A DNA stretch of 64,000 nt from Patescibacteria group bacterium (lineage in GTDB: Bacteria > Patescibacteriota > Microgenomatia > UBA10105 > UBA927): assembly GCA_018821245.1 (NCBI GenBank), contig JAHJMO010000026.1:15518-79517 (forward strand), read 5' to 3'. Shown here piece after piece: positions 17,436 to 38,008 of this stretch. Under the pieces are notes generated by a model. That model ran no database searches. It saw only the letters and a list, made by a program, of their open reading frames with translations, and had not been told where the DNA came from. Numbering within the stretch: the stretch's first letter is position 1; each line of letters begins with the position of its first letter. The position numbers and the translations under genes were made by a program.

Positions 17436-17497
17436 TATATAATACGTGACAGAAGAAAGGATATTGAGCGCCGGTTTATGCAGGCAATACGGATGCC

Positions 17498-22241: not shown

Positions 22242-22252
22242 ACTTACGGCGT

Positions 22253-23127: not shown

Positions 23128-23228
23128 AATCTATTATCCAACGCACCTTGACGAAAGTCAACACTTCGACAAACACAGTATTGATCCCCTAGCTTGTCGA
23201 AGGGGCAATGAGGTTTTATAATAGGGAC

Positions 23229-23840: not shown

Positions 23841-23987
23841 TTGCATGAAAAACAGTTCTATCGCTAGCCTCTTTTTTTAAAAGTGCACAAATTTCTTGAG
23901 GATTTTCTGAAGGAGTTTCTTGCAGAAGTAGAGGGGAGAAGATAGGGGACAGTATCGGGTAGCATACCCGTTTAGATAGATATCGCT

Positions 23988-24539
23988 ATGCCGTATCAGG
24001 AAACATCATTACCCGTCGGTATCCAAGAAGGAGGTGCTTATCGCCTATGGGAGAAAACGCAACGCCTTCTTGCGGTTATTTTTCCTGGCCAAAACTTTTT
24101 TGTAACAAGTGCCAATCATAATACTCCGACTATTTGTGCATACGATGCGATTCCAGTTACAGCGGATCGCCGTCGGGCATTAGCTCCAATTCTTGATATG
24201 TTAGGATATGGGGCACTCAATCATTTTTTAACGTCGGGCGGAATGGATACGATGGAAGTTACGACATATCATAAAGAGAGTGCCACCAATGCTGTTGAAG
24301 TAGGGTTTTACAAAGTACGAGAGCACACTGATGGAGGTATATATTTTCGACTTGAACTAGGAGGCACAGATGATTCTTCAGCGTCGATTGTATTGCGCAC
24401 TGGGTGTAACGAGTCTCCGTCCTTCACGAGGGGATTTGCTCGAGAACTTGCTGTTAGCCCACCGTCTACATTTCCCATCTGTGAACTCCTTGATGGATTC
24501 ATCCAAGCGAAACAAAGTAGTACATTATTCGCTAGATGA
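23988..24539 (+). CDS. Hypothetical protein
   Basis: 183 aa ORF with good coding potential, no motif recognised; hairpin CGGGTAGCATACCCG immediately upstream. Confidence 0.35.
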   Translation: MPYQETSLPVGIQEGGAYRLWEKTQRLLAVIFPGQNFFVTSANHNTPTICAYDAIPVTADRRRALAPILDMLGYGALNHFLTSGGMDTMEVTTYHKESATNAVEVGFYKVREHTDGGIYFRLELGGTDDSSASIVLRTGCNESPSFTRGFARELAVSPPSTFPICELLDGFIQAKQSSTLFAR

Positions 24540-24560
24540 GAAGGACGAGAGAGCATAGAG

Positions 24561-24600
24561 AGTAATACCTATTGACATAAGTATTACTTTATAGTATAGT
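24561..24600 (+). promoter_or_regulatory. vapBC promoter with overlapping inverted-repeat operator
   Basis: AGTAATAC...GTATTACT inverted repeat brackets a TTGACA -35 (24572-24577); 17-nt spacer; TATAGT -10 (24595-24600); a third half-site TTATTACT follows. Confidence 0.45.
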
Positions 24601-24607
24601 TATTACT

Positions 24608-24871
24608 ATGCAACTACAATTCATGACTACGATTACCACAAAAGGACAGGTGACGATACCGGAGTCGGTACGTCGAGCATTGGACGTGAGCGTTGGAGAC
24701 AAAGTGGCCTTTGTTCGTGTGGAGAGAGCGAGTAAGGAAGCCACCATTCGAATTATTTCCACAAGCGTCGTTGATAAACTCGCCGGTTCGTTAAAGAACG
24801 CAGTACCCTATACACCCCAAGCGAAGGTACGAAAGATTCTTGCCAGAGAACGTGCGAAACGATATACATGA
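24608..24871 (+). CDS. vapB: AbrB/MazE/SpoVT-family antitoxin (VapB-like)
   Basis: TKGQVTIPESVRRAL..GDKV swapped-hairpin DNA-binding motif; 4-nt overlap (ATGA) with the downstream PIN gene. Alternative ATG at 24623. Confidence 0.7.
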   Translation: MQLQFMTTITTKGQVTIPESVRRALDVSVGDKVAFVRVERASKEATIRIISTSVVDKLAGSLKNAVPYTPQAKVRKILARERAKRYT

Positions 24872-25269
24872 AAACTACGCAGGCGGTCCTTTTAGACACA
24901 AACGTCATTCTTCGATTTTTTCGTGAAGATCATCCCGAACATTTCAGGCGTGTAAAAAACCTATTTCAACAAGCGGAGAAAGGAATGATATTCTGTTATA
25001 TAGATCCTGTAGTTTTTGCAGAAGTGGTTTGGACACTGGCGTCATTTTATAAAGTAAACCGTTCTGAAATTACAACGAAGCTAGAAACACTTTTGGCACA
25101 GAAATGGATGGTCAACGAGCATAAGCAAACACTCCTTTCTGCGCTCTATCAGTATCAAGAAACAAATTTGGATTACATTGACTGTTGGCTTCTGGCAGTT
25201 TCGGAGGAATATGCTATCCCTATAGAAACATTTGATAAGAAATTGCAAAAACTCGTTCATGCATTGTGA
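24868..25269 (+). CDS. vapC: PIN-domain ribonuclease toxin (VapC-like)
   Basis: LLDTNVIL (first acidic residue), further conserved D/E positions, 133 aa; coupled to the upstream antitoxin. Confidence 0.8.
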   Translation: MKTTQAVLLDTNVILRFFREDHPEHFRRVKNLFQQAEKGMIFCYIDPVVFAEVVWTLASFYKVNRSEITTKLETLLAQKWMVNEHKQTLLSALYQYQETNLDYIDCWLLAVSEEYAIPIETFDKKLQKLVHAL

Positions 25270-25276
25270 CGTGTAT

Positions 25277-25858
25277 ATGATTCCAACGGAAGATCAGTGC
25301 AGGCAATTGTGGGAAAAGTATCACTTGCCGGAAAAAAAGCGCCGGCACGTAGAGTTAGTGGCGTGCGTTGCGCGCTTTCTCTCTCAACAATTAACAATTA
25401 ACAATTCACAATTAACAATTAATCACTCGCTTCTTGTTGCCGGAGCGCTCCTTCATGATATTGACAGCAAAGTACCTAAATTATCTGGAGAAAAACATCC
25501 GGATGCAGGTGTGAGAGTTCTTAAAATTGAAGGTTTAGCAAAGATAGCGCAGTTAATTAAGACGCATGCTTTGCATACAATTCTTGATCGACATTCTTGT
25601 CCAAAAACCCTGGAAGAAAAAATTTTGTTTTTGGCGGATAAAATGGTCAAATACGATATCATTACGGTAGACGAGCGTTTCAGGTTGTGGGGGAATGAGT
25701 CTTTGTCAGACGCCGAACAGAGAGTTCTTCGCGCGGCTTACCCCAAGGTGAAAGCTCTTGAAAAAGAACTATTATATCTTGCCGGGATTGGAAGTCCGGG
25801 ACAGGTGGCAAAGTTGATCATGGAAGAGTATACTAACAAAAAGAAGGAGGGCGTATGA
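25277..25858 (+). CDS. HD-domain phosphohydrolase
   Basis: H...HD motif (ALLHDIDSK) and downstream conserved D/K; carries an in-frame 7-bp tandem repeat insertion (25386-25423) encoding QQLTINNSQLTINHS. Confidence 0.6.
   Translation: MIPTEDQCRQLWEKYHLPEKKRRHVELVACVARFLSQQLTINNSQLTINHSLLVAGALLHDIDSKVPKLSGEKHPDAGVRVLKIEGLAKIAQLIKTHALHTILDRHSCPKTLEEKILFLADKMVKYDIITVDERFRLWGNESLSDAEQRVLRAAYPKVKALEKELLYLAGIGSPGQVAKLIMEEYTNKKKEGV
25386..25423 (+). repeat. Tandem heptamer array (AATTAAC/AATTCAC) x5, in-frame inside the HD-domain CDS
   Basis: caattaa caattaa caattca caattaa caattaa; translates QQLTINNSQLTINHS. Confidence 0.8.
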
Positions 25859-26427
25859 AACATATATTACGAATGCTTGTTATCGTTATTGTATTCCTTT
25901 TTGTTCTGTTTGTTTCCGGAGTTGCCGGGGGGTCTGTCTCTGCGGTAGACACAACTCCAGTAGCGACCCAGGCGACAAGCGCGCAAGGCGCCAAAGAATA
26001 TTTTCTTCCCTACCCGGGTATCCTCCCTGACCATCCTTTATACAAGATAAAGCTAGTGCGCGATTGGATTTTAGAACGGATCATCGTAGACCCGATACGA
26101 AAAACAGAATTTTACATTCTTCAGGGTGATAAGCGCCTCAACATGGGGATTGCTCTTGTGGAAAAAGGAAACAGCGCGCTCGCTGGTGAAGTCATAAGTC
26201 AATCGGGAAACTTCATGGAACAAGCCATGCATACCCTCACTTCTATAAAGACTGCCGGTCGGGAAGTCCCTCTATATGTTTTGGAACATATGGAGAGTGC
26301 TCTCGTAAAACATAATGACGTATTAGAAACCATGCGGGTAAATCAAAGCGGCTCTGCAGAGAGCGTTATTATAGATGCACAGAAACACATACAGGCACTC
26401 CGGCAGGACATTGCAAAAGTCAGGTAG
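25855..26427 (+). CDS. Secreted/membrane-anchored hypothetical protein (DUF5667-like)
   Basis: N-terminal TM/signal anchor; YFLPYPGILPDHPLYKIK motif resembles DUF5667 proteins; overlaps the HD gene by 4 nt. Confidence 0.4.
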   Translation: MKHILRMLVIVIVFLFVLFVSGVAGGSVSAVDTTPVATQATSAQGAKEYFLPYPGILPDHPLYKIKLVRDWILERIIVDPIRKTEFYILQGDKRLNMGIALVEKGNSALAGEVISQSGNFMEQAMHTLTSIKTAGREVPLYVLEHMESALVKHNDVLETMRVNQSGSAESVIIDAQKHIQALRQDIAKVR

Positions 26428-26750
26428 GGAGCAAAAGACGGGGACAGAAAACACTTAATTTGTGGAAAAACATTGGTTTCCGAACACAAAAATTATTCCC
26501 CGGTTTGGCAATATCGCTCCGTTGTCATTTCCAACATTACATTCTCCGTAGTATTCCCTCAAACTATAACAGGTCGAGGCTAAGAATAGACCATGAAAGG
26601 TTTTGATATAGAAATTGCCAGTTGACGCCGCTTATTTAGTGTCTTAGGATGTTTAGTGGCACCACCTATAGCGTTTTAGTTTTCATGCTTCACCAGGTAC
26701 AGTAGTCGCGTTTTCGGGTGTTATAACGAAGTGAAGCATGATTTTTATTC

Positions 26751-27197
26751 ATGAAATGTCCATATTGCAATCATAACGACACTGACGTTATCGAGACGCG
26801 CGACAGCGAGGATCTGCGAGTTACCAGAAGGAGGAGGTACTGCGCGAAATGCGAAAAAAGGTTTACCACGTATGAACGGATTGAAAGTGTTCCGTTGACG
26901 GTTATCAAAAAGGACGAGCGCAGAGAAACATTTGACAGAGAAAAGCTTAAGCGAGGTATTTTGAGAGCCAGCGGTAAGACAAAAATTACAGCAGTTGACG
27001 TGGACCGCATCGTTGACGAAGTTGAAAGAGAGCTGATTTCCGGAGACTCAACCGAAGTAAAAAGCAAGCAGATTGGGCAATTAGTAGCCAAGAGGCTCAA
27101 GAAATTGGATAAAATTGCCTACATTAGATTTGCCAGCGTGTTTCGTCGTTTTCTGGACATAGAAGATTTTGAAAAGGAAGTGAAAAAATTGCTGTAA
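26751..27197 (+). CDS. nrdR: Transcriptional repressor NrdR
   Basis: MKCPYCNHNDTDVIETR...YCAKCEKRFTTYERIE zinc ribbon followed by an ATP-cone. Confidence 0.95.
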   Translation: MKCPYCNHNDTDVIETRDSEDLRVTRRRRYCAKCEKRFTTYERIESVPLTVIKKDERRETFDREKLKRGILRASGKTKITAVDVDRIVDEVERELISGDSTEVKSKQIGQLVAKRLKKLDKIAYIRFASVFRRFLDIEDFEKEVKKLL

Positions 27198-27225
27198 GCA
27201 ATTTTTTCATGGTGAGAATTTACGT

Positions 27226-29343
27226 ATGGTAAAAAAGACAATTACCAAAATTAAAAAGCGAAGCGGTCGGATTGTTAAGTTTAATCCGCTAAAAATCGTC
27301 AACGCGATTGAAAAGGCATTTAAGGCTATTGGTGAAAAGGATGGGGCAAGAGTCAAGGTATTGGCAGACAAAGCTGTCAAGAAACTTGAAGAGCGGTACG
27401 ATGGGAAGATTATTCCTCAGGTTGAAGAGATCCAAAATATTATTGAAGAGGTCTTAATGCAACACTGCCATTATGATGTGGCTCGGGCCTATATTTTATA
27501 CAGAGATCTTAAGAATCGCGTTCGTGATATTCACTCTTTGATTGACTCGGACGAACTCGTCGGCGATTATCTTTCCAAACTTGATTGGCGCGTCCGGGAA
27601 AATTCCAACATGGCCTATTCTCTTCAGGGGTTAAACAATCATGTCTCCTCGGTGGTTTCTGCCAATTATTGGCTTAACAAGATTTATCCCCCTCAGATTA
27701 GACAAGTCCATGTTGATGGCGATCTTCATATTCATAATTTACAGATGTTGGCAGCCTATTGCTGTGGTTGGGATTTAAAGGATCTTTTAGTCGGGGGTTT
27801 CGGGGGAGTTCCTGGCAAGATTGAGTGTAAACCGCCAAAGCATTTTCGGACTACATTAGGGCAGTTGGTTAATTTTTTTTATACGCTTCAGGGGGAAATT
27901 GCCGGCGCGGTGGCAGTTTCTAATTTTGATAGCCTTCTCGCACCTTTTATCGCCTTTGATGGTCTTTCCTATTCAGAAGTAAAACAATCTCTTCAAGAAT
28001 TTATTTTTAACATGAATGTCCCCACCAGGGTAGGTTTTCAAACGCCCTTTTCTAATGTTACCCTTGATCTTATTATTCCTGACTTTTTGGCCAAAGAACC
28101 GGTGATTATCGGAGGCATTCCACAAGGTAAAACGTATGAAGAGTTTCAAAAAGAAGTTGATGTATTCAACAAAGCCTTTGCCGAAGTGATGCTTGAAGGA
28201 GATGCGAAGGGGCGAGTTTTTACTTTTCCCATTCCCACCTATAGTATAACCCGCGATTTTAATTGGGATAATCCGATTTATAAAGGAATTTGGGAAATGA
28301 CCCGCAAATACGGCATTCCTTATTTTTCCAATTTTGTCAATTCGGATATGAAACCGGAAGATGTCAGGAGTATGTGCTGCCGGTTGAGATTGTCAACCAA
28401 AGAACTTCAACATCGGGGAGGAGGGCTTTTTGGCGCTAATCCGTTGACTGGAAGCCTTGGTGTCGTAACTCTTAATTTACCAAGGATTGGTTATCTCGCT
28501 AAAACGAAAAAAGAATATTTTGAGAAACTTTCTCACTTGATGGACCTGGCCAAAGAAGCCCTGCTTCTCAAAAGGACAGTAGTGGAGAAGTTTACCGAAG
28601 AAGGACTTTATCCGTACTCCAAAGTGTATTTGGGGGGAGTTAAAGGCCGCTTCGGCGAATATTGGAAAAATCACTTCAACACCATTGGTTTAATTGGTAT
28701 GAACGAATCGCTTCTTAACTTTATGAACAAGAATATCGGCGAGGAGGAGGGACGGGTCTTTGCAGAAGAAATTCTGGATTTTATGCGGACTAAACTTTTA
28801 ATATATCAAAAAGAAACTGACCAGATGTTTAATCTGGAAGCCACGCCTGCCGAGGGGACTTCTTATAATTTGGCCAGACTTGACAAGAAACTGTACCCTA
28901 AGATTATCTGTGCTAATGAAAAGGAAATCGGCAAAGATCATGCAGAACCTTTTTATACTAATTCAACACATCTGCCGGTTAATTTTACCGATGATATTTT
29001 TCAAGCTCTTGACCTTCAAGATAACCTCCAGACAAAATATACCGGCGGAACGGTTTTCCATGGATTTTTAGGGGAAAGCTTGCCGGATACGGTCGCCGTT
29101 AAAACCATGGTAAAAAAAATTGCCGAGCATTATCACCTTCCTTATTATACCTTAACCCCCACCTTTAGCGTTTGTCCCGGTCACGGTTATCTTAAAGGGA
29201 AACAGGATACATGTCAGGAGTGCGGCAAAACGTGTGAGGTTTGGTCAAGAATTGTTGGCTACTTACGACCGGTTGTTCAGTGGAATGTTGGGAAACAGGT
29301 GGAATTTGCAGAAAGGAAGACTTACCGGATTAAAACAACCTAA
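27226..29343 (+). CDS. nrdD: Anaerobic ribonucleoside-triphosphate reductase (class III) NrdD
   Basis: N-terminal ATP-cone; C-terminal Zn-ribbon CPGHGYLKG...CQECG and glycyl-radical motif RIVGYLRPV. Confidence 0.9.
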   Translation: MVKKTITKIKKRSGRIVKFNPLKIVNAIEKAFKAIGEKDGARVKVLADKAVKKLEERYDGKIIPQVEEIQNIIEEVLMQHCHYDVARAYILYRDLKNRVRDIHSLIDSDELVGDYLSKLDWRVRENSNMAYSLQGLNNHVSSVVSANYWLNKIYPPQIRQVHVDGDLHIHNLQMLAAYCCGWDLKDLLVGGFGGVPGKIECKPPKHFRTTLGQLVNFFYTLQGEIAGAVAVSNFDSLLAPFIAFDGLSYSEVKQSLQEFIFNMNVPTRVGFQTPFSNVTLDLIIPDFLAKEPVIIGGIPQGKTYEEFQKEVDVFNKAFAEVMLEGDAKGRVFTFPIPTYSITRDFNWDNPIYKGIWEMTRKYGIPYFSNFVNSDMKPEDVRSMCCRLRLSTKELQHRGGGLFGANPLTGSLGVVTLNLPRIGYLAKTKKEYFEKLSHLMDLAKEALLLKRTVVEKFTEEGLYPYSKVYLGGVKGRFGEYWKNHFNTIGLIGMNESLLNFMNKNIGEEEGRVFAEEILDFMRTKLLIYQKETDQMFNLEATPAEGTSYNLARLDKKLYPKIICANEKEIGKDHAEPFYTNSTHLPVNFTDDIFQALDLQDNLQTKYTGGTVFHGFLGESLPDTVAVKTMVKKIAEHYHLPYYTLTPTFSVCPGHGYLKGKQDTCQECGKTCEVWSRIVGYLRPVVQWNVGKQVEFAERKTYRIKTT

Positions 29344-29349
29344 GACCTC

Positions 29350-30063
29350 ATGCTTATCAAAGGCCTACAAAAAACAACCTTGCTCGATTACCCTGGAAAA
29401 GTTTCCTGTATCGTGTTTGTCGGCGGTTGCAACTTCCGCTGCCCCTTTTGTCATAATTCTGATTTAGTTTTGGAGCCACAAAAATTACCCACTATCGCAG
29501 AAGATGATTTTTTTAACTTTATAAAGACAAGAGTCGGGCTTTTAGATGGGGTGGTTATCACCGGTGGCGAGCCCACTCTTTACTCTGATCTTTCCCGGTT
29601 TATGAAAAAAGTAAAAGGCTTGGGTTTTTTGGTTAAATTGGATACCAATGGGAGTAATCCGGAGATGGTGAAAGAATTGATAAAAGATAGATTAGTGGAT
29701 TATATAGCAATGGACCTGAAGGGGCCGCTAAAGAAATATTACAAATATATTGGACAAAGTCAAAATCACGGTCGTAATGCAGAACATATTGAGACGAGTA
29801 TAAAGATTATTTCGGAAAGCAGAGTGGAGTTTGAATTAAGGACCACGGTGGTGCCGACGCTACACACGAAGAAAGACTTACTAGAGATGGCAAAGCAGCT
29901 AAATAATATTGGTAATGTTAAGTGGTATCTTCAGCAATTCAGTCCAAAACAATGTTTGGATCCAGGGTTTGAGAAAATTAAGCCATACCCAAAGAGTTTT
30001 TTTGAGGATTCACTATCCGAGATTAAAAAATATTTGTCGACAACATTTTTAAGGGGTGTTTAG
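29350..30063 (+). CDS. nrdG: Anaerobic RNR activating enzyme NrdG (radical SAM)
   Basis: CNFRCPFCHN radical-SAM cluster motif; directly follows nrdD. Confidence 0.85.
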   Translation: MLIKGLQKTTLLDYPGKVSCIVFVGGCNFRCPFCHNSDLVLEPQKLPTIAEDDFFNFIKTRVGLLDGVVITGGEPTLYSDLSRFMKKVKGLGFLVKLDTNGSNPEMVKELIKDRLVDYIAMDLKGPLKKYYKYIGQSQNHGRNAEHIETSIKIISESRVEFELRTTVVPTLHTKKDLLEMAKQLNNIGNVKWYLQQFSPKQCLDPGFEKIKPYPKSFFEDSLSEIKKYLSTTFLRGV

Positions 30064-30097
30064 TCTGACACAAGGGTCGGCCTCCTCGTATTTGTGA

Positions 30098-30123
30098 CAA
30101 ATAAACAAATATACAAATAAATG
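30098..30123 (+). repeat. Tandem octamer array CAAATAWA x3, intergenic nrdG-pduO
   Basis: caaataaa caaatata caaataaa. Confidence 0.6.
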
Positions 30124-30159
30124 ACTTAATAACAAAACGGTTGAATGATTTGTAGATTT

Positions 30160-30714
30160 ATGAATATCTATACCCGCGCCGGCGACAAAGGATTTACTTC
30201 TATTTTTGGTGGGAAGCGAGTTTTGAAATGCCACGAGCTTGTGGATACATATGGGTTCATAGACGAGCTAAATAGTTGGGTGGGGTTGATAATTTCACAA
30301 CTTAATAAAAACGATGAAACCCGATTTTTTGTAGAAGTTCAGAAGCAACTGCTTGCTATTGGAAGTAGTCTGGCCGGCTGGAAGGGTTTGAAAAAAGAAT
30401 TAGTAGAAAAACAAATCAAGAAGATGGAGATCAAAATAGATTTGATGGAAAAAACTCTTCCTACGATAAAAAATTTTGTTCTTCCAGGCGGATCACGCGT
30501 GGGATCAATAGTTCATATTGCCAGAAGTATTTGCCGTAGGGCCGAACGACAAACCGTTTCCTTGGCACAGAAACAAATAATACAACCGGAGATCATCAAA
30601 TACCTGAATCGCCTGTCGGACTTGCTTTTTGTTTTCGCACGGTTTATAAACAGTCAGGGCGGCGTCACCGAAGTCGTTTGGTCTGGAGACGCGTCCACAG
30701 AAAAGAAACGGTAA
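30160..30714 (+). CDS. PduO-type ATP:cob(I)alamin adenosyltransferase
   Basis: N-terminal IYTRAGDKGFTSIFGG matches the PduO/MMAB ATR signature (iYTrtGDkGeTsl); about 185 aa. Confidence 0.8.
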   Translation: MNIYTRAGDKGFTSIFGGKRVLKCHELVDTYGFIDELNSWVGLIISQLNKNDETRFFVEVQKQLLAIGSSLAGWKGLKKELVEKQIKKMEIKIDLMEKTLPTIKNFVLPGGSRVGSIVHIARSICRRAERQTVSLAQKQIIQPEIIKYLNRLSDLLFVFARFINSQGGVTEVVWSGDASTEKKR

Positions 30715-30715
30715 A

Positions 30716-30870
30716 GATAAGAGGAATCCAGTGTAAATCTGGGGCTGTGCCGCAACGGTAGCCCTGTCGATGTCGTTTTACGACATAATGACCGGGGAGC
30801 CCGGAACTCATCTTTACCAAAAACAATCCCGAGCAGGAGAACTACGCGTAAGCGGAGAATGGAAAAATCT
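30716..30870 (+). promoter_or_regulatory. Cobalamin (B12) riboswitch aptamer
   Basis: GAGGAATCCAGTGTAAATCTGGGGCTGTGCCGCAACGGTAGCC aligns almost base-for-base with the conserved core of the E. coli btuB leader (GGGAAUCCAGUGCGAAUCUGGAGCUGACGCGCAGCGGUAAGG). Downstream helices GTCGTTTTACGAC and CCGGGGAGCCCGG, and a B12-box-like AATCCCGAGCAGGAG. Confidence 0.7.
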
Positions 30871-30943
30871 ACAGAATCACTAACGTACGAATAGGCAACG
30901 AGTATTCGTTCGTAGAGGTCTTTCGTAGATTTTGACATAGGAT

Positions 30944-30973
30944 CCCTCTCGGGAAAGAGAGGGTTTTTTATTT
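30944..30973 (+). terminator. Intrinsic terminator (likely riboswitch expression platform)
   Basis: CCCTCTC-GGGAAA-GAGAGGG followed by TTTTTTATTT; ends 9 nt before the ATG at 30982 with the SD AGAGGA inside/after the U-tract. Confidence 0.7.
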
Positions 30974-30981
30974 AGAGGAAT

Positions 30982-32925
30982 ATGCCATTTGCACGCGCAG
31001 AACTACCGGGTATGGGGCCACAATCATCAGGATGTTCCTGTTCTGTTGATACCGGTCTTTGGGTGAACTTATATAACGAAATTTATGATGATGTAGCAGA
31101 AAAAATGAAACAGACAGGATTGTTTTTTAACGAAGAACACGTAAAACACGAAGCGAGTAAACGATTCATGTTGCATGTTTACCTGCCAGACATAAAGAGT
31201 GTTGTTAAAGAGTGGAGAGGCGACAAGGTGATGGACGGGACAGTATATGACGTGACTAATCATGGACTGGAGATAGTATGGAAAGGTGAGAGAATAACTG
31301 CGGAGTATGAATTTGTTCTGAAGCGTCGCTCAATGGGCCTGGAAGATCCAGATGAGACACGCACGTTCTACAGAGCGCAAAAGAAAATTCTCGCCTCACC
31401 GAATGCAGATGTGTGGTTTCCGGTACACGAAAAAGCAGACGGAGAAGACCGCATACGGTATGCGGCCCACTGGGTGCGGGACGGCAATCGCGTACGCGCG
31501 GAAACGCACCGTATAGCAGGTGACCGGGATTTAAGCCTAAAAGAAGCGCGTCAGGTCATACGAGAAAAGGTCGGCTCATATGCGCCGCATGAGACAAGCA
31601 AGACAGATGCGTCGTTTGTGTTTTCCAACATTCAGGAGGCGGATCATAGGAGGAAAACCTTGCAAGCGCAATATGATCACAACATAAAACAGCAGAAAGA
31701 TATCATTTCACCACAGGATATTGACATAAAGATGGTTCACGTCGAAAAAATATACAACCCCAACCGTCAAGTTGATGCGTATCCGGCCGAACATCGGGTA
31801 ATTCGTGATGCAGCCGACACTTTATTACATTCTTCTCAACGTATAACAAAAGACACTACGACAGCGAGTGTAGCGTTTGCTTCTTTTTTGCGTGAATCGT
31901 TCAGGAAAAAAAAGAGAATTGATGCCCGAAGTACCATAAAAAATATTGAGAGCAGGCGACAGCAGAAAGCAAAAGAAAAGTTCATATCACAGAAAATTTT
32001 GTCGTTCTTTCGTCAATCGCAACCAGAAAGACCGGAAGGAAAAATTCGCCACAAGGTAGCCCACTGGATGCGTCGTTTAGAAAACAACGTGGACACACAG
32101 CATGTTGTTCATGCCGTAGCGAACATGTCAGCTGGTATAAGAAAGAAAATTGTGTTGTTGAGTGATATAGTTTCAAAATTTTTTCCTTGGACGAGGGGCG
32201 CGACAGGAACATTGGAAGGCGGAGCTGCAAAACGCAGGACACAATCTATAAAGGAGAAACAAGGAGAGAGGGAAAGAGAGTTTAAAAAAGCCGGTTGGTT
32301 TATAAAGCTGTTCAAAAGAGAGAACGATAAGCAAGCAGTAGAGGAACATTGGAATATTATCTGCAAAGTGCAACCGTTGAAGGCAGAAAAAATATCGCCG
32401 TTTTACACAATGCTTCGTGCGCTGGCTGCAAAGCTTCAAATATTTCCCGTCGCTTCCAAGCGGGAGGGAATAGAAATTACCACACAACAGGTCAAAGAAA
32501 AACAAGAGCTGATGTCAGAAGAGATGCTTCCGGAAGACAATCACCTTGTTCGGGAGAAGTCAATAGATATGTTTGAAACAACAAGCGACTTTTTTGTTTC
32601 AGCTCTCTTATGGTATGTATTGTATGAAGCAGATGTAGTCAATTTCGACGCGCAGAACCCCAGTCTTGTTGATGAGAAAAATATTAATGTATCGATACAT
32701 CAATATAAGACAGAAAAATTGGTGCAGAGTACAGCAGGTGGAAATTGGATTCTGTTTTCTATTATTTGGTATCTGGCGATGATCCGCGAACAAGGGAAAA
32801 GACAAGGCGTGAAACAAAAGAAAAAAGGAGGATCGAAGAAAAAGACGATTATTTGGGATAGAAACACAACAAACCCACCGGCGATACTTCCGCAACACAA
32901 TATAATATTTGTTTTTCGTTCGTGA
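30982..32925 (+). CDS. Hypothetical 647-aa protein, highly charged, two C-terminal TM helices
   Basis: Long ORF immediately after the riboswitch and terminator; K/R/E/Q-rich; hydrophobic segments FFVSALLWYVLY and NWILFSIIWYLAMI near the C-terminus; no known domain recognised. Confidence 0.5.
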   Translation: MPFARAELPGMGPQSSGCSCSVDTGLWVNLYNEIYDDVAEKMKQTGLFFNEEHVKHEASKRFMLHVYLPDIKSVVKEWRGDKVMDGTVYDVTNHGLEIVWKGERITAEYEFVLKRRSMGLEDPDETRTFYRAQKKILASPNADVWFPVHEKADGEDRIRYAAHWVRDGNRVRAETHRIAGDRDLSLKEARQVIREKVGSYAPHETSKTDASFVFSNIQEADHRRKTLQAQYDHNIKQQKDIISPQDIDIKMVHVEKIYNPNRQVDAYPAEHRVIRDAADTLLHSSQRITKDTTTASVAFASFLRESFRKKKRIDARSTIKNIESRRQQKAKEKFISQKILSFFRQSQPERPEGKIRHKVAHWMRRLENNVDTQHVVHAVANMSAGIRKKIVLLSDIVSKFFPWTRGATGTLEGGAAKRRTQSIKEKQGEREREFKKAGWFIKLFKRENDKQAVEEHWNIICKVQPLKAEKISPFYTMLRALAAKLQIFPVASKREGIEITTQQVKEKQELMSEEMLPEDNHLVREKSIDMFETTSDFFVSALLWYVLYEADVVNFDAQNPSLVDEKNINVSIHQYKTEKLVQSTAGGNWILFSIIWYLAMIREQGKRQGVKQKKKGGSKKKTIIWDRNTTNPPAILPQHNIIFVFRS

Positions 32926-32943
32926 TATGATGAAGATATTCTT

Positions 32944-33405
32944 ATGAACAATCTGCCCGATGATACTCAAATTCGCGCGAACAATACTCCGCCGGGGACT
33001 AACAACACGGCTTCGCAGACGGCGCCATCCGCCGGAGGCGCGTTTCTTAAGGAAGTTGAGAGGCCTTCCGCGGTTTCTTCTGAGGTGTCGATACGCCCCG
33101 CCACAGCAGAGACAGAATTACCGAAAGAGGTAGCGTCGGCAGGAGTGACGTTGAGACCCACAAGTGTCCCGATTCCGCCGAAGCTATCGCAAATGGGTGT
33201 TAAGCCTGCGGGAAACAATGTACCCACGCAGCCCAAGGCAACAACTGTCGCCCTGCCGCTTACCGATGACCAGATCGCTCAAGGGCTCCATCAGGGAATA
33301 ATGAGCTCATGGAGATGGCTTGCACAGTGGTGTCTTCGCCGCCTGAAACAATTACACGTTGGACTGAAAGCAATGCACGGGAAGTTAACAAGGGTTCGCG
33401 CGTAA
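32944..33405 (+). CDS. Hypothetical Pro/Thr/Ala-rich protein
   Basis: Low-complexity 153-aa ORF with a C-terminal amphipathic W/R-rich helix; stop TAA 3 nt before the next ATG (translationally coupled). Confidence 0.4.
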   Translation: MNNLPDDTQIRANNTPPGTNNTASQTAPSAGGAFLKEVERPSAVSSEVSIRPATAETELPKEVASAGVTLRPTSVPIPPKLSQMGVKPAGNNVPTQPKATTVALPLTDDQIAQGLHQGIMSSWRWLAQWCLRRLKQLHVGLKAMHGKLTRVRA

Positions 33406-33407
33406 CC

Positions 33408-35756
33408 ATGTCAGAACAATTATTAGATCTTACCTATCGTTTGGAGATGTTTGGAATAAGTCTCCTGTTTATCGCCTTGTTTCTGGCGGGGATGGCGCTT
33501 CTGGCCTACGGCGTGTTTTTGCTGTGGAAATACCGCGACAGAGAAAAGCAATCGCTTGAGTACGCGCTTCTTCAGGTGGCGGTGCCGCGCGACAATGAAA
33601 TAAAAATAGACGCATCCGAGCAAATGTTTGCAAGTCTGCATGGTATATATCACGGTGGTTTTTGGTCGTTTCTTACGCCGTCTCCGCATCTGTCGTTTGA
33701 GATTGTGGCGAAAAAAGAAGATATCCGGTTCTATATTTCTGTTCCGCGCAAATTTACGGATTTGGTCGAAAAACAAATTCACGGCGCTTATCCCGGAGCG
33801 GATATAAGGACAGTGGATGAGTATTCTATTTTTTCCGAAAAAGGCAATGTAGCCTTTGCAGCACTGCGACTGAAAAACCCAGACTATTTGCCTATCCGCA
33901 TCTTTCGGGATCTGCCGGTTGATCCTCTTTCGTCTATTACATCTGTTCTTGCCAAAATGCAGGAGGGTGAAGGAGCGGCAATTCAAATACTCGTCCAGCC
34001 CACGGGAGGAAAATGGCGAAACATAGGAAGGTCATATATTTCCAAGGTGAAGAAAAATGAGGCAAACCCGGAAAAAGCAAGCTTTAAAGTGGATCAAAAG
34101 TCCCTGGAGGCGATAGAACAAAAAACCAGCAAACCTGGCTTCAACGTCGTTGTCAGGATCGTTGTGTCTTCTGGGACGAAGGAATCGGCAGACATTCATT
34201 TGGAGAACATCCTTTCCTCGTTCTACCAGTTTACATCGGATCATAATGCATTTACCAAGGTCAAGCACCCCATAAAAAAATTATTCATGCTGGATTTTAT
34301 CTACAGGTATTTTCCGATTTGGAATTTTCCGTTCTTTCGTCAATATAGCGTGCTTAATAGTGATGAGTTGGCTACGGTATACCATTTGCCGAATAAATTC
34401 GTAGAAACGCCGCACGTTTTTTGGTTGAACGCCAAGCGTGCGCCAGCCCCATCACAAATCCCCTCAAGCGGGCTGTTTATAGGTGCTTCGCAATACCGAG
34501 GAGTTGACCGCCCGATTTACGTAGGCGACGACGACCGAAGGCGCCATACATATATCATTGGTAAGACAGGAACAGGTAAAACACAACTTCTGGAAGAGTT
34601 GGTTATGCAGGATATTTCCGCTGGTCGGGGGGTAGCTGTCATAGATCCGCATGGAGACCTGATCGACGGAATATTGTGCCGTATGCCGCCGGAGCGGGCA
34701 GAAGATGTAATCTATTTTGACCCGTCCGACACCGAGCGACCCATGGGGCTTAACATGCTTGAGTCATACACAGAGGAACAGAAGCATTATGTGGTAACGT
34801 CGATTGTCGGGCTTATGTACAAGTTGTATGATCCGATGAAAACAGGCATCATCGGCCCGCGTTTTGAGCACGCCATCAGGAATGCGATGCTCACGGTTAT
34901 GTGTGAGCCGGGGAATACATTTGTCGAAGTAGTCCGGGTGCTCACAGACAGTTCATTCGTTCAGGAATTGCTTCCCAAAGTGGACGATCCGGTTATTCGC
35001 CGTTATTGGACTGACCAGATTGCGCAAACCGCTGATTTTCATAAGTCCGAGGTATTGGACTATATCGTTTCGAAATTCGGCCGGTTCGTGACCAATAAAC
35101 TCATGCGCAACATCATCGGCCAGTCTAAATCATCATTCGATTTCCGTAAAGTTATGGATGAGGGCAAGGTGTTGCTGGTAAATTTGGCAAAGGGGAAAAT
35201 CGGTGAGGAGAATAGCAATTTCTTGGGTCTTATTATCGTTCCAAAGATTCTGATAGCCGCCATGAGCAGGCAGGAAGTGGCAGAAGAAAAACGGCGCGAC
35301 TTTTACCTCTATGTCGATGAGTTTCAGAATTTCGCAACGCCGGACTTTGCCCAGATTCTTTCAGAGGCCAGAAAGTATAAGCTCAACCTGATCGTTGCTA
35401 ACCAGTTTATCGGTCAGATGGAGGAAGAAGTAAAGAATGCTGTATTTGGTAACGTTGGGACACTCATCGCGTTCCGCGTGGGTGTGACGGACGCTAACTA
35501 CCTGCAGCATGAGTATCAGCCGACGTTTAATGAAATCGACCTTATCAATATCGATAAGTACAACGCATATGTCAAAACTATCGTGAATAATGAACCGGTT
35601 AAACCGTTTAGCCTGGATCTTACGAAAGACATGGGGAGGATCTATCAAACCCGCAATCCGCAGGTAGCCAAAGCAATTATTCAACTGTCGCGCCTGAAGT
35701 ACGGCAGGTCCAGGGAGTTGATCGAGGCGGAAATTGCGCATCGCGCGCGTTTATAG
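33408..35756 (+). CDS. VirD4/TraG/TraD-family (type IV coupling protein-like) membrane ATPase
   Basis: N-terminal TM helix; Walker A IGKTGTGKT; AVIDPHGDL (TraG/TrwB-type); Walker B FYLYVDEF; C-terminal TraD/TraG-like region. Confidence 0.6.
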   Translation: MSEQLLDLTYRLEMFGISLLFIALFLAGMALLAYGVFLLWKYRDREKQSLEYALLQVAVPRDNEIKIDASEQMFASLHGIYHGGFWSFLTPSPHLSFEIVAKKEDIRFYISVPRKFTDLVEKQIHGAYPGADIRTVDEYSIFSEKGNVAFAALRLKNPDYLPIRIFRDLPVDPLSSITSVLAKMQEGEGAAIQILVQPTGGKWRNIGRSYISKVKKNEANPEKASFKVDQKSLEAIEQKTSKPGFNVVVRIVVSSGTKESADIHLENILSSFYQFTSDHNAFTKVKHPIKKLFMLDFIYRYFPIWNFPFFRQYSVLNSDELATVYHLPNKFVETPHVFWLNAKRAPAPSQIPSSGLFIGASQYRGVDRPIYVGDDDRRRHTYIIGKTGTGKTQLLEELVMQDISAGRGVAVIDPHGDLIDGILCRMPPERAEDVIYFDPSDTERPMGLNMLESYTEEQKHYVVTSIVGLMYKLYDPMKTGIIGPRFEHAIRNAMLTVMCEPGNTFVEVVRVLTDSSFVQELLPKVDDPVIRRYWTDQIAQTADFHKSEVLDYIVSKFGRFVTNKLMRNIIGQSKSSFDFRKVMDEGKVLLVNLAKGKIGEENSNFLGLIIVPKILIAAMSRQEVAEEKRRDFYLYVDEFQNFATPDFAQILSEARKYKLNLIVANQFIGQMEEEVKNAVFGNVGTLIAFRVGVTDANYLQHEYQPTFNEIDLINIDKYNAYVKTIVNNEPVKPFSLDLTKDMGRIYQTRNPQVAKAIIQLSRLKYGRSRELIEAEIAHRARL

Positions 35757-35813
35757 CCGGTCGTTGCCAAACTCCTTCTTTACAAAATTTACCAATGCGG
35801 TATTCTACATTTC

Positions 35814-37169
35814 ATGATTGTTTATATCAGCAACGTATCAGAAGACGTATGGCCGTTTATTAGCTCCATATCCCAGGCGCAGGCGCGTGAGTTTGAAATT
35901 CAGGAGAATGCCAATCTGGCAGAGCGCGACCTTTTTTCGTTCCCTGGCGAGGATCACTTTCTTTTCGTCTCTCCCCGGTCTATCAGCCGGACCTTTCTGG
36001 ATTATTACATAGGATTATTCGGTAATAAGCATCTTTCTGTCTCAACGCCCAAGGTCCATACAGGAGTTATTTGTGAGGATATTCTGGCGGATGACGATGT
36101 CATGGATGAAATAGCGATTGCCGCAAACGGGGCCAAGCGATTAACACTTGTTTCCTACACCGCCTCACCACAGTTTTTGGCGCTTGTGTCGGAACTTCGA
36201 AAGAAAGGTTTTAACGTGTACACTCCTGAAGCACCGGAGCAGGAGGACGCATGGACGGTAAACTTTTTCGGCAGCAAGTCCGGGATACGTCAGCTTGCGC
36301 AGAAAAGTGCGGCAGTTGAACCGGACTTCGTCATGGCGGACGGCTTGGTTTGTTCGGGTATAGGAGACGCGGCGAAAATCGCAGCAAAAAAATATATTCG
36401 CGAAAAAGGCGTTGTCGTCAAAACCAATAAAGGGCATTCAGGCGCAGGAGTACTCATTTTCCGGCAGGGAGATTTGCCCGAGAATTACGATGAGTGCGAG
36501 GAACAGATAAAAACCACGCTTTCCCGTGACGGGTATTGGGAAAAATTCCCAATTGTCATTGAGAGTTTTGTAAAAGAAAACCGTGCGGTGGCCGGAGGAT
36601 TTCCAAATGTTGAGTTTAAGATTGCCAAACACGGTGAAGTGGAGTTCCTCTACTACTGCGCGCTTAGGGTGACGCCGGAGGGGGTATTTAAGGGGATAGA
36701 AATTCAAGATGAAGCAGTGTCGGATAAGCTCGGAGCACGCATGATGGATACGGGATTCTATGTAGGCGAGCAATATGCCTCTTACGGATATCGGGGATAT
36801 TTTGACGTGGACTTTGTCGCCAGTCGAAACGGACAACTGTATGTGACGGAGTCCAATACGCGGCGGACAGGGGGAACGCACGTGTATGAAACAACAAAAG
36901 CTCTATTTGGGAAAAACTTTATGACCGAGGTATATACATTGTCAAACAATATCTATCCATTGCCGAAACGGAAACAGATTTTTTTGGAAAATCTTTTAAA
37001 CGCGCTTTCGCCGATACTGTTTGACAAAAAAAGCAAAGAAGGTTTGATCGTCGCTTCTGAGCACATCTTAAACCAGGGGGCTTTTTCCTACATCATCTAC
37101 GGCCAGACGAAAAAGCGCGCTCTTGCCATCGAGGAAAAAATGGAAGAGATTGTACAAAAGTTAGTCTAA
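35814..37169 (+). CDS. ATP-grasp fold protein
   Basis: KGHSGAGV (P-loop-like), ...E-x-N-x-R (VTESNTRRTGG) catalytic loop typical of ATP-grasp ligases; 451 aa. Confidence 0.45.
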   Translation: MIVYISNVSEDVWPFISSISQAQAREFEIQENANLAERDLFSFPGEDHFLFVSPRSISRTFLDYYIGLFGNKHLSVSTPKVHTGVICEDILADDDVMDEIAIAANGAKRLTLVSYTASPQFLALVSELRKKGFNVYTPEAPEQEDAWTVNFFGSKSGIRQLAQKSAAVEPDFVMADGLVCSGIGDAAKIAAKKYIREKGVVVKTNKGHSGAGVLIFRQGDLPENYDECEEQIKTTLSRDGYWEKFPIVIESFVKENRAVAGGFPNVEFKIAKHGEVEFLYYCALRVTPEGVFKGIEIQDEAVSDKLGARMMDTGFYVGEQYASYGYRGYFDVDFVASRNGQLYVTESNTRRTGGTHVYETTKALFGKNFMTEVYTLSNNIYPLPKRKQIFLENLLNALSPILFDKKSKEGLIVASEHILNQGAFSYIIYGQTKKRALAIEEKMEEIVQKLV

Positions 37170-37234
37170 GAACCGCGTGCTCCATTCCGGTTTCATCGCA
37201 ATTTTTCCGCTGATTTAGTACAATGATATCCGAC

Positions 37235-37306
37235 GCGCCCGTAGCTCAGCGGAAGAGCGCGTGTCTTATAAACACGAGGTGCTTGGATCGTCACCAAGCG
37301 GGCGCA
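37235..37306 (+). tRNA. tRNA-Ile (anticodon UAU, reads AUA)
   Basis: Cloverleaf: acceptor GCGCCCG/CGGGCGC (7 bp), D-arm GCTC/GAGC, anticodon stem CGTGT/ACACG with loop CTTATAA (anticodon TAT), 5-nt variable loop, T-arm CTTGG/CCAAG, discriminator A, no encoded CCA. T-loop ATCGTCA is non-canonical (A54/T58), so a tRNAscan check is needed. Confidence 0.6.
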
Positions 37307-37307
37307 C

Positions 37308-37343
37308 AATATTAAACAAATTAACAATTAACAATTAACAATG
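37308..37343 (+). repeat. Tandem heptamer array AATTAAC x4 between tRNA 3' end and the idi start codon
   Basis: attaaac aaattaac aattaac aattaac aATG; the last unit supplies the idi ATG context. Confidence 0.75.
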
Positions 37344-37901: not shown

Positions 37902-37919
37902 CTTGTAGCTTGATGTAAA

Positions 37920-37957
37920 GCCACGACAAAATTCCGCTCGAGCGAGTGTTTGTCGTG
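37920..37957. terminator. Strong hairpin between convergent idi and tsaD (candidate bidirectional terminator)
   Basis: CCACGACAAA...TTTGTCGTGG 10-bp perfect stem with an 18-nt loop containing the palindrome GCTCGAGC; no clear U-tract. Confidence 0.35.
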
Positions 37958-38008
37958 GAGAATGTTTGACAAAAGCTAGGTGGCACGACATTGTTTGCTC
38001 TTGGCCGA

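What the first reader, a model, noticed from the sequence alone, without database searches (positions are those of the whole stretch)
30716..30981. Cobalamin riboswitch plus terminator directly downstream of a PduO-type adenosyltransferase, gating an operon of unknown function
The aptamer core GAGGAATCCAGTGTAAATCTGGGGCTGTGCCGCAACGGTAGCC is nearly superimposable on the E. coli btuB B12 riboswitch core. Supporting helices and a B12-box-like AATCCCGAG follow. About 70 nt further on, a textbook intrinsic terminator (CCCTCTC/GAGAGGG + U7) ends 9 nt before the ATG at 30982, with the SD inside the U-tract. That is the classic layout of a transcription-attenuating riboswitch. Its position is odd: it starts 2 nt after the stop of an ATR that makes AdoCbl (the ligand). 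The regulated genes are not transporters, B12-independent isozymes or cobalamin biosynthesis genes. The upstream class III RNR does not use B12.
Basis: partly seen in the sequence, partly recalled or inferred. Interest (0 to 1): 0.85.

Follow-up and report, generated by a model that had tools for sequence, protein, structure and literature searches.

The report
B12 riboswitch in an ultrasmall bacterium
This is a genuine vitamin-B12-sensing RNA switch with a transcription terminator in a Patescibacteria (CPR) genome; the RNA is an ordinary kind, but here it has lost its usual B12-uptake genes and directly controls a lineage-specific membrane protein of unknown function.

Summary
Rfam's cobalamin model RF00174 matches window 30698-30829 on the + strand at 38.1 bits (gathering score 31.5). 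The hairpin at 30944-30963 plus U6 is the best terminator-like site in 12.5 kb.

Its sequence can instead pair with 30943-30954 and cover the terminator's whole 5' arm. That gives a standard B12-OFF attenuator.

The window is a Patescibacteria contig. In 17 related loci the same riboswitch lies in a conserved block: NrdR, class II (B12-dependent) RNR NrdJ, PduO adenosyltransferase, riboswitch, then usually B12-uptake genes (DUF4430 + DUF6580). After those come a fast-evolving gene, a small protein and a highly conserved VirD4/TraD-like ATPase.

In the window lineage NrdJ is replaced by NrdD/NrdG and the uptake genes are absent. The switch therefore abuts the 647-aa gene. It is still under purifying selection (K = 0.09 against dS 0.26-0.91).

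In other lineages a riboswitch, sometimes a second copy or one on the opposite strand, sits directly before a fast-evolving gene in the same position. So that gene looks like a real B12-regulated target.

Verdict: a new member of a known riboswitch class with an unexplained regulon member.

The parts
30145..30714 (+). PduO-type cob(I)alamin adenosyltransferase gene. Its last 5 nt, including the stop codon, overlap P1 of the riboswitch.
   Evidence: Pfam PF01923 at 175.9 bits and NCBIfam TIGR00636 at 182.4 bits against a cut-off of 108. dN/dS against L002 is 0.23.
30710..30818 (+). Cobalamin aptamer, from P1 to P1. P1 30710-18/30810-18. P3 30721-23/30807-09. P4 30727-31/30739-43 with T-loop L4 UGUAAAU. 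P5/L5 30746-54, with L5 CCG at 30750-52. P6 30756-58/30801-03, with a 42-nt hairpin insertion at 30759-30800. J6/3 GAA 30804-06.
   Evidence: RF00174 at 38.1 bits, above the 31.5 gathering score. P4 and P5 covary across 18 related aptamers: 98.6% of cells paired, 36 double-sided changes, 0 of 500 shuffles as high.
30827..30838 (+). P13/L13 hairpin (UCC-CGAGCA-GGA). L13 is the partner of L5 in the ligand-dependent kissing loop. This stretch is also the 5' strand of the antiterminator.
   Evidence: Present in all 18 related riboswitches, with compensatory stems UCC/GGA, UCU/AGA, CUUC/GAAG, CCUU/AAGG and CCC/GGG. No substitutions against L002. RF01482 models the same hairpin in L024.
30842..30938 (+). 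Spacer structures between P13 and the terminator: a small GUAA hairpin (30842-57) and a long imperfect hairpin (30859-30938). Their role is unknown; they may bring the two antiterminator strands together.
   Evidence: Fold energy -30.1 kcal/mol, z about -3.2 against shuffles. L009 has a different-sequence long hairpin at the same place. The other relatives lack it.
30943..30954 (+). 3' strand of the antiterminator (UCCCUCUCGGGA). It pairs with 30827-33, 30835-37 and 30839-40, 12 bp in all. It overlaps the whole 5' arm of the terminator.
   Evidence: This is the MFE structure of the expression platform (-46.6 kcal/mol) and of the full leader. It forms as soon as position 30956 is transcribed (-88.8 against -74.4 at position 30943).
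30944..30969 (+). Intrinsic terminator: 7-bp G+C-rich stem, GGGAAA loop and U6.
   Evidence: Top-ranked site. The only differences from L002 are two loop substitutions and a one-base deletion in the U-tract; the stem is unchanged. L009 has a covarying stem, CCCUCCC/GGGAGGG.
30975..30984 (+). Shine-Dalgarno GAGG (30975-78) and the ATG start codon of the 647-aa gene.
   Evidence: Read directly from the sequence. The N-terminus MPFARAE is conserved in L002, and MP- in L009.
30982..32925 (+). First regulated gene, p647. It is a fast-evolving, Patescibacteria-restricted protein. It has an N-terminal helical hairpin plus a PAS-like alpha/beta domain, a long K/R-rich low-complexity linker, and two C-terminal TM helices carrying the conserved motif IIWYLAMIREQG...GVIFAxxS.
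32944..33405 (+). p153, a small conserved protein of unknown function. It lies 18 nt after p647 and 2 nt before the next gene.
   Evidence: Found by tblastn upstream of the ATPase gene in many loci. No family match.
33408..35756 (+). DUF8128 / VirD4-TraD-like (T4SS coupling-protein-like) ATPase, a highly conserved Patescibacteria core gene. It is probably co-transcribed with p647.
   Evidence: Pfam TrwB_AAD_bind, T4SS-DNA_transf and TraG-D_C above their cut-offs. 7966 homologues, about 80% identical across Gottesmanbacteria. dN/dS is 0.04. PDB matches to TrwB and DotL cover the Walker A region only.
35814..37169 (+). ATP-grasp-like protein, the last protein gene of the putative operon.
   Evidence: Only weak Pre-ATP-grasp and BesA-like matches, below their cut-offs. 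Syntenic in Gottesmanbacteria loci.

Best explanation
A functional cobalamin-responsive OFF riboswitch of the class-II-like kind acts by transcription attenuation.

Mechanism. The transcript comes from upstream, either by read-through of the adenosyltransferase gene or from an A+T-rich promoter-like region around 30093-30125. When a corrinoid is bound in the P3-P6 four-way junction, L5 (CCG, 30750-52) kisses L13 (C30830, G30831, G30833). This locks the weak 3-bp P13 hairpin. Residues 30827-30840 are then unavailable, the terminator (30944-63 plus U6) forms, and RNA polymerase stops 12 nt before the ATG of the 647-aa gene.

Without ligand, P13 opens. Residues 30827-40 pair with 30943-54 as soon as those are made and sequester the terminator's whole 5' arm. 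Transcription then continues into p647 and, most likely, into the tightly packed p153, VirD4/TraD-like ATPase and ATP-grasp-like genes.

History. The switch belongs to a conserved Patescibacteria block that links B12 to deoxynucleotide synthesis: NrdR - NrdJ - adenosyltransferase - riboswitch - (DUF4430 + DUF6580 uptake genes) - variable gene - p153 - ATPase. In the window lineage the uptake genes are missing and NrdJ has been replaced by NrdD/NrdG, so the switch now directly controls p647.

Status of each step:
- Shown: family membership, helices and their covariation, the alternative terminator and antiterminator pairings, the synteny, and purifying selection.
- Inferred: ligand binding, the kissing loop, the direction of regulation, and the extent of the operon.
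- Unknown: what p647 does. My best guess, held at about 25%, is a B12-scarcity function. That would be corrinoid acquisition, or a back-up for the B12-dependent RNR working with the neighbouring ATPase.
For: - RF00174 is above its gathering score in the window and in L002.
- RF01689 is above its gathering score in five relatives.
- RF01482 reaches 44.8 bits, below its gathering score of 50, for a second copy in L024.
- P4 and P5 covary over 18 aptamers. P6, P13, P1 and P3 show compensatory variants.
- The antiterminator is the MFE of the platform. Its energy is close to that of the P13 + terminator state: -84.6 against -83.6 kcal/mol with the aptamer enforced.
- The same logic recurs in relatives with different sequences. 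L13 CGGGUGA is complementary to UCACCCG in the L004 terminator. UUCCGAG pairs with CUCGGAA in L024b, and CCCGAG with CUCGGG in L011. In L020, P13 followed by U8 is itself the terminator.
- The non-coding stretch 30715-30981 diverges from L002 at K = 0.092, against dS of 0.26-0.91 in flanking genes. P13 is invariant and the terminator stem is intact.
- Gene gaps of 18, 2 and 57 nt, and no strong + strand terminator inside the gene set, point to one operon.
- Synteny.
Against: - No binding or expression data exist.
- The antiterminator is the full-length MFE only in the window, L004 and L024a. In L009, L007, L024b and L011 it would have to act kinetically.
- The proposed kissing loop has only 2-3 pairs with a bulged A.
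- The VirD4/TraD-like ATPase looks essential (dN/dS 0.04, a core gene). Complete B12 shut-off of it is implausible unless internal promoters exist.
- In L030, L033 and L042 the switch is on the opposite strand and cannot control the ATPase.
- The window shows no B12-dependent enzyme and no B12 transporter. Why this organism still senses B12 is not explained.
Confidence: 0.85

Rival explanations
1. Stranded relic. The riboswitch once controlled the DUF4430/DUF6580 uptake genes. It was left behind when they were deleted, and it no longer has a selected regulatory role in this lineage, which has also lost NrdJ.
For: L008 and L087 keep the order adenosyltransferase - riboswitch - DUF4430 - DUF6580 - p647-family gene. 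The window lacks both uptake genes and NrdJ.
Against: All helices, P13 and the terminator are intact, and the element scores above Rfam's gathering score. It evolves 3-10 times more slowly than synonymous sites since the split from L002. At least five other species-level lineages (L004, L007, L009, L084, L085/86) keep the switch directly before a gene other than the uptake pair, each with its own terminator. The adenosyltransferase is still under purifying selection (dN/dS 0.23).
Confidence: 0.07
2. Narrow target. The switch controls only the fast-evolving gene (p647). The p153, ATPase and ATP-grasp-like genes are driven mainly by internal promoters, so 'gating an operon' overstates its reach.
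For: In L030, L033 and L042 the riboswitch is on the opposite strand and drives only the variable gene. L024 carries a second riboswitch placed just before its variable gene. The ATPase is a highly conserved core gene.
Against: The gene gaps in the window are 18, 2 and 57 nt. The scan listed no + strand promoter-like match between 30982 and 34803; its next + strand matches, from 34804, lie inside the ATPase gene. That sigma-70 scan is of doubtful value for this phylum.
Confidence: 0.3
3. ON switch or translational switch. Ligand binding activates expression, as in the A. halodurans cobT riboswitch, or acts mainly on ribosome binding rather than on termination.
For: Activating corrinoid riboswitches exist (PMC10327014). 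Relatives L008, L087, L033, L042 and L030 carry the SD in the 3' arm of P13 and appear translational.
Against: In the window P13 and the terminator are compatible, and P13 competes with the antiterminator. That is the repressing architecture. The SD GAGG at 30975-78 lies outside P13 and outside the terminator stem.
Confidence: 0.04

Closest known systems
Priestia megaterium metE corrinoid riboswitch (transcriptional, repressing; PMC10327014)
   Same: The L5-L13 kissing loop stabilises P13. [quoted passage not shown] The output is an intrinsic terminator before the regulated gene.
   Different: Here the antiterminator uses the 5' arm and loop of P13 rather than its 3' arm. P13 is only 3 bp. About 100 nt with a long hairpin separate P13 from the terminator. 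The regulated gene is not a B12-independent isozyme.
Class II cobalamin riboswitches (env8 HyCbl type; Rfam RF01689 'AdoCbl-II')
   Same: The same four-way-junction core and the same P13 kissing hairpin. Five relatives at this locus best match RF01689 and have a 6-7 nt L6.
   Different: The window copy carries a 42-nt hairpin inserted in L6 and scores best with RF00174. env8 acts on translation, whereas this one has a terminator. Ligand preference (AdoCbl or MeCbl/HOCbl) cannot be read from the sequence, because class II members span the whole range (PMC6158498).
Cobalamin riboswitches before B12 uptake genes (btuB, btuFCD, ECF-type S components); this comparison rests on established knowledge
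   Same: In relatives L008, L011, L023, L024 and L087 the same switch precedes a DUF4430 protein and a DUF6580 protein. DUF4430 is the domain shared with transcobalamin and intrinsic factor (PMC4350170). DUF6580 is an ECF-S-component-like membrane protein.
   Different: In the window these two genes are absent. The switch abuts an unrelated gene.
Mycobacterium tuberculosis PPE2 B12 riboswitch (PMC11260477, title and abstract only)
   Same: A bona fide B12 riboswitch whose regulated gene has no evident link to B12.
   Different: Different phylum, aptamer subtype, expression platform and target protein.

Membership tests
Cobalamin riboswitch (Rfam clan CL00101, RF00174) | Covariance-model score at or above the curated gathering score, on the transcribed strand | tested here: met
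   38.1 bits against 31.5 on the + strand, the same strand as all flanking genes. No - strand match. L002 scores 35.1 bits.
Cobalamin riboswitch (Rfam clan CL00101, RF00174) | Four-way junction P3-P4-P5-P6 with a T-loop L4, supported by compensatory changes in homologous loci | tested here: met
   Across 18 aptamers, P4 and P5 are 98.6% paired with 36 double-sided changes, and 0 of 500 shuffles are as high. P6 occurs as CGG/CCG, CUG/CAG and CCG/CGG. P3 occurs as GAG/CUC and AAG/CUU.
Cobalamin riboswitch (Rfam clan CL00101, RF00174) | P13 hairpin whose loop L13 is complementary to L5 (kissing loop) | tested here: inconclusive
   P13 is present and covaries in all 18. L5 CCG can pair with L13 CG(A)G if the A bulges. 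L004 (CCG/CGG) and L030 (UCG/CGA) fit the register. The contact is only 2-3 bp and was read by eye, not scored.
Cobalamin riboswitch (Rfam clan CL00101, RF00174) | Binds a corrinoid and changes gene expression | not testable with these tools
   Needs in-line probing or ITC, plus termination or reporter assays.
Class II (short-P6) versus class I cobalamin riboswitch | Absence of the large P6 peripheral extension, and best match to RF01689 | tested here: inconclusive
   Relatives have a 6-14 nt L6 and match RF01689. The window has a 42-nt hairpin insertion in L6 and matches RF00174 best. Two lower-scoring clan matches are hidden by the tool.
Rho-independent attenuator (terminator / antiterminator expression platform) | G+C-rich hairpin plus U-tract before the start codon, and a mutually exclusive alternative pairing that involves the ligand-sensitive element | tested here: met
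   A 12-bp antiterminator (30827-40 with 30943-54) competes with a 7-bp terminator (30944-63) followed by U6.
B12 uptake operon (DUF4430 binder + DUF6580 membrane component) as the regulated unit | Genes for these two proteins downstream of the switch | tested here: not met
   tblastn with three examples of each finds nothing in the 64 kb window. Both are present in L008, L011, L020, L023, L024 and L087.
PduO-type ATP:cob(I)alamin adenosyltransferase (upstream gene) | Score above the curated cut-off of TIGR00636 / PF01923 | tested here: met
   182.4 bits against 108.45, and 175.9 bits against 24.
Type IV secretion coupling protein (VirD4/TraD/TrwB) for the 782-aa ATPase | Full-length match to coupling-protein equivalog models | tested here: not met
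   The domain-level Pfam models pass: TrwB_AAD_bind 33.3 against 20.5, T4SS-DNA_transf 27.1 against 20.1, TraG-D_C 26.4 against 22. All NCBIfam equivalogs fall far below their cut-offs, e.g. SXT_TraD 63.5 against 366. PDB matches cover the Walker A region only. It works like a coupling-type ATPase but is a distinct DUF8128 family.

The most novel reading that the evidence does not exclude
The fast-evolving genes behind the switch are true members of a Patescibacteria B12 regulon. These are p647 in Gottesmanbacteria and the Cys-rich 'M..ER...SPPG...CxxC' proteins in Levy-/Woese-like lineages. They would act with p153 and the universally conserved VirD4/TraD-like ATPase in one of two ways: as a new route for acquiring corrinoids from the host or environment, or as a B12-sparing back-up supply of deoxynucleotides when the B12-dependent RNR NrdJ is idle. 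In the window lineage, which has lost NrdJ and the known uptake genes but keeps the adenosyltransferase and the switch, B12 would then act chiefly as a signal, for example of host contact, rather than as a cofactor.
Probability: 0.2. Interest if true: 0.7.

Novelty: new member of a known kind. Interest (0 to 1): 0.4.

Why it matters
The RNA is an ordinary, well-understood regulator. What is useful is its setting. Patescibacteria are mostly uncultivated, have few recognisable regulators, and carry many genes of unknown function.

A B12 switch that is kept directly in front of a fast-evolving membrane protein gives a testable physiological handle ("needed when B12 is scarce") on that dark-matter gene set. 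The gene lies next to one of the most conserved ATPases of the phylum. In other lineages the switch is duplicated or inverted so that it still sits in front of the gene in that position.

The locus also records a swap of a B12-dependent RNR for a B12-independent one, with the B12 sensor and the adenosyltransferase retained. The full-text searches run here found no paper that mentions cobalamin riboswitches together with this phylum.

Tried and rejected
- **Minus-strand element or chance match.** Rejected: only the + strand matches, with E = 3e-08. The 94-aa ORF on the - strand (30654-30938) overlaps the structured RNA and has no support.
- **Covariation from L002.** Uninformative: L002 is too close, about 90% nt identity in conserved genes. 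This led to the wider locus search.
- **p647 as a fused or diverged DUF4430/DUF6580.** Rejected: no similarity.
- **Homology between the p647 N-terminal domain and the Levy-type variable proteins.** A MAFFT alignment suggested shared E and P columns, but hhalign gave no support (probability below 1%). They are treated as positional analogues only.
- **Profile search of the N-terminal alignment in the 5.8-billion-protein database.** It returned nothing, not even the query's own cluster. That search was wasted.
- **Fold search against the AlphaFold database.** The library was not available.
- **First AF2 model from 3 sequences.** Too poor, pLDDT 55. It was superseded by the 17-sequence model.
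- **Defence-system reading of the operon.** PADLOC gave nothing for p647, p153 or the ATP-grasp-like protein.
- **PDB profile searches for both variable-protein families.** Nothing found.
- **Building a covariance model.** Not done: MAFFT mis-registered P6 and J6/3 between the long-L6 and short-L6 aptamers. I used a core HMM and a gapless core alignment instead.
- **Long hairpin 30859-30938 as a conserved functional element.** Only weakly supported: of the 12 substitutions against L002 in 30839-30943, three keep a pair, four break one and five are unpaired.

Full report
**What is at 30716-30981.** Rfam's cobalamin model RF00174 matches window 30698-30829 on the + strand at 38.1 bits (gathering score 31.5). 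E is 4.2e-06 for the whole window and 3e-08 for the region, and there is no - strand match.

The helices in window coordinates are as follows:
- P1 30710-18/30810-18
- P3 30721-23/30807-09
- P4 30727-31/30739-43, with the T-loop L4 UGUAAAU
- P5/L5 30746-54
- P6 30756-58/30801-03, with a 42-nt hairpin insertion
- J6/3 GAA

P1 overlaps the TAA stop codon (30712-14) of the upstream gene. The hairpin CCCUCUC-GGGAAA-GAGAGGG (30944-63) plus U6 is the top terminator-like site in 26000-38500. The SD GAGG (30975-78) and the ATG (30982) follow.

AAUCCCGAG is the 5' half of a small hairpin, UCC-CGAGCA-GGA (30827-38). It corresponds to P13/L13, the partner of L5 in the ligand-dependent kissing loop. Rfam's RF01482 models the same hairpin in a related copy. 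L5 CCG (30750-52) can pair with C30830, G30831 and G30833 if A30832 bulges.

**The switch.** The minimum-free-energy fold of the expression platform, and of the whole leader, pairs 30827-33, 30835-37 and 30839-40 with 30943-54. That is 12 bp, and it covers the entire 5' arm of the terminator.

With the aptamer helices enforced, the antiterminator state (-84.6 kcal/mol) and the P13 + terminator state (-83.6) are nearly equal in energy. The antiterminator can form as soon as position 30956 is transcribed, before the terminator's 3' arm exists. Locking P13 through the kissing loop would tip the balance to termination.

This is the repressing architecture that mutagenesis established for the P. 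megaterium metE corrinoid riboswitch (PMC10327014). Ligand binding, the kissing loop and the sign of regulation are inferred here, not shown.

**Where the window comes from.** The 647-aa product is annotated in NCBI as a hypothetical protein of a "Patescibacteria group bacterium". The contig is in ENA ERZ27247117.

The gene order is:
- NrdR (26751-27197)
- class III RNR NrdD (27226-29343)
- its activase NrdG (29350-30063)
- PduO-type adenosyltransferase (30145-30714)
- riboswitch
- p647 (30982-32925)
- p153 (32944-33405)
- a DUF8128/VirD4-TraD-like ATPase (33408-35756)
- an ATP-grasp-like protein (35814-37169)
- tRNA-Ile(UAU)
- IPP isomerase

Gaps of 18, 2 and 57 nt and the absence of a strong internal terminator suggest one operon behind the switch.

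**Related loci.** L002 has the same synteny and the same RNA. It is too close to be informative about covariation, at about 90% nt identity in conserved genes.

The ATPase proved to be a core Patescibacteria gene, about 80% identical across Gottesmanbacteria with 7966 homologues. I used it to fetch 80 loci from species-representative genomes. Four more loci came from p647 relatives.

A gene map, Rfam scans, a core HMM and Pfam give a consistent picture:
- Every locus with an adenosyltransferase near the ATPase and a recognisable upstream RNR carries the class II, B12-dependent RNR NrdJ. The window, with NrdD/NrdG, is the only exception.
- A cobalamin riboswitch is present in 17 such loci.

The layouts are:
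- (a) NrdJ - RS - DUF4430 - DUF6580 - ATR - ... - ATPase (L011, L023, L024).
- (b) NrdJ - ATR - RS - DUF4430 - DUF6580 - p647-family gene - p153 - ATPase (L008, L087).
- (c) NrdJ - ATR - RS - p647-family gene (L004, L007, L009, L085/86), or the same with a GNAT gene inserted (L084).
- (d) NrdJ - DUF4430 - DUF6580 - ATR - RS - variable gene (L020).
- (e) A second riboswitch just before the variable gene (L024).
- (f) The riboswitch on the opposite strand, driving only a variable gene that converges on ATR (L030, L033, L042).

DUF4430 is the domain shared with transcobalamin and intrinsic factor (PMC4350170). DUF6580 resembles ECF S components.

The position after the adenosyltransferase gene is therefore normal for this clade. 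The switch is part of a B12/RNR block. The window is a derived state of layout (b) in which the uptake pair is gone and NrdJ has been replaced. No NrdJ, DUF4430 or DUF6580 is found in the 64 kb.

**Covariation and selection.** In a gapless alignment of 18 aptamer cores, P4 and P5 are 98.6% paired with 36 double-sided changes. No shuffle out of 500 and no slid register comes close.

P6, P3, P1 and P13 show compensatory variants by inspection. The terminator stem covaries between the window and L009.

Complementarity between L13 and the terminator recurs with different sequences:
- L004: CGGGUGA with UCACCCG
- L024b: UUCCGAG with CUCGGAA
- L011: CCCGAG with CUCGGG

In L020, P13 followed by U8 is itself the terminator.

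Between the window and L002 the non-coding stretch 30715-30981 has K = 0.092, against dS = 0.26-0.91 in the flanking genes. P13 is invariant and the terminator stem is unchanged; the terminator differs only by two loop substitutions and a one-base deletion in the U-tract. One P6-extension pair changes C-G to U-A. A decaying relic is therefore unlikely. The adenosyltransferase is also constrained (dN/dS 0.23).

**The regulated gene.** p647 has no Pfam, NCBIfam or PADLOC match. Only 33 cluster representatives match it among 1.84 billion.

The family keeps an N-terminal domain (about residues 18-230) and a C-terminal pair of TM helices with the motif IIWYLAMIREQG...GVIFAxxS. A K/R-rich low-complexity stretch separates them. 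It evolves fast: 49% aa identity to L002 and dN/dS 0.38.

The variable genes of the Levy-/Woese-like loci form another family, with the pattern M..ER...SPPG...CxxC. They have no detectable homology to p647 and no PDB or Pfam match.

A riboswitch is kept, duplicated or inverted so that it sits directly before whatever gene occupies this position. This argues that the gene, and not only the uptake pair, is a B12-regulated target. What it does is unknown.

**Comparison with the known, and verdict.** The RNA is a member of the cobalamin riboswitch clan. Its core is class-II-like. Ligand preference cannot be read from the sequence (PMC6158498). The expression platform works like the validated P. 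megaterium metE switch.

It is a new member of a known kind. The unusual features are the phylum, the loss of its usual targets and of the B12-dependent RNR in this lineage, and an unexplained regulon member next to a core ATPase of the phylum. The full-text searches for cobalamin riboswitches together with this phylum returned nothing.

Confidence that this is a functional B12-OFF attenuator of p647 is 0.85. Confidence in any specific function for p647 is low.

Noticed in passing
window 27226-30063: A class III RNR (NrdD + NrdG) occupies the slot where every related locus with an adenosyltransferase and a recognisable RNR has the B12-dependent class II RNR NrdJ. The adenosyltransferase and the B12 riboswitch are nevertheless retained. 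L021 has NrdD/NrdG next to the ATPase with neither.
   Followed up: partly
window 33408-35756: The DUF8128/VirD4-TraD-like ATPase is extremely conserved: about 80% aa identity across Gottesmanbacteria, 41-69% across other Patescibacteria, and dN/dS 0.04. In many lineages it sits next to the RNR genes. It is a core gene of unknown role rather than a mobile-element gene.
   Followed up: partly
window 30859-30938; L009 about 4420-4480: A long imperfect hairpin lies between P13 and the terminator. It occurs only in the window, L002 and L009, and the L009 sequence is different. Its role in the switch is unknown.
   Followed up: partly
L024 3009-3047 and 4603-4643: One locus has two cobalamin riboswitches. 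One precedes DUF4430-DUF6580-ATR. The other, best matched by RF01482, precedes a 482-aa Cys-rich variable protein.
   Followed up: yes
L030 6265-6304, L033 5845-5884, L042 6394-6433 (all - strand): The riboswitch is on the strand opposite to all neighbours. It drives a single variable gene (296-480 aa) that converges on the adenosyltransferase gene. The SD lies in the 3' arm of P13, so control is translational.
   Followed up: partly
L007, L004, L024, L011, L020 leaders: In these relatives the terminator U-tract is followed immediately by the ATG. The purine-rich 3' arm of the terminator (GAGAAG, GAGGAG and similar) lies at SD distance, so one hairpin would block both transcription and translation.
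   Followed up: partly
window 37235-37307: A tRNA-Ile with anticodon UAU lies directly after the ATP-grasp-like gene. A tRNA is conserved at this position in relatives.
   Followed up: no
window 20724-26427: Upstream neighbours are nucleotide-salvage-type genes: GMP synthase, a phosphoribosyltransferase, a cytidylate-kinase-like protein and an HD hydrolase. A MazE/PIN toxin-antitoxin pair (24608-25269) is inserted among them. The whole neighbourhood is about nucleotide supply.
   Followed up: no
window 12897-17516 (- strand): Two tandem class A penicillin-binding proteins (transglycosylase + transpeptidase).
   Followed up: no
L020 15075-15275: A group I intron (RF00028, 66.5 bits) lies in a complete Levyibacteriota chromosome, about 6 kb downstream of the ATPase gene.
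   Followed up: no
L084 1514-1984: A GNAT acetyltransferase gene is inserted between the riboswitch/terminator and the p647-family gene in one relative.
   Followed up: no
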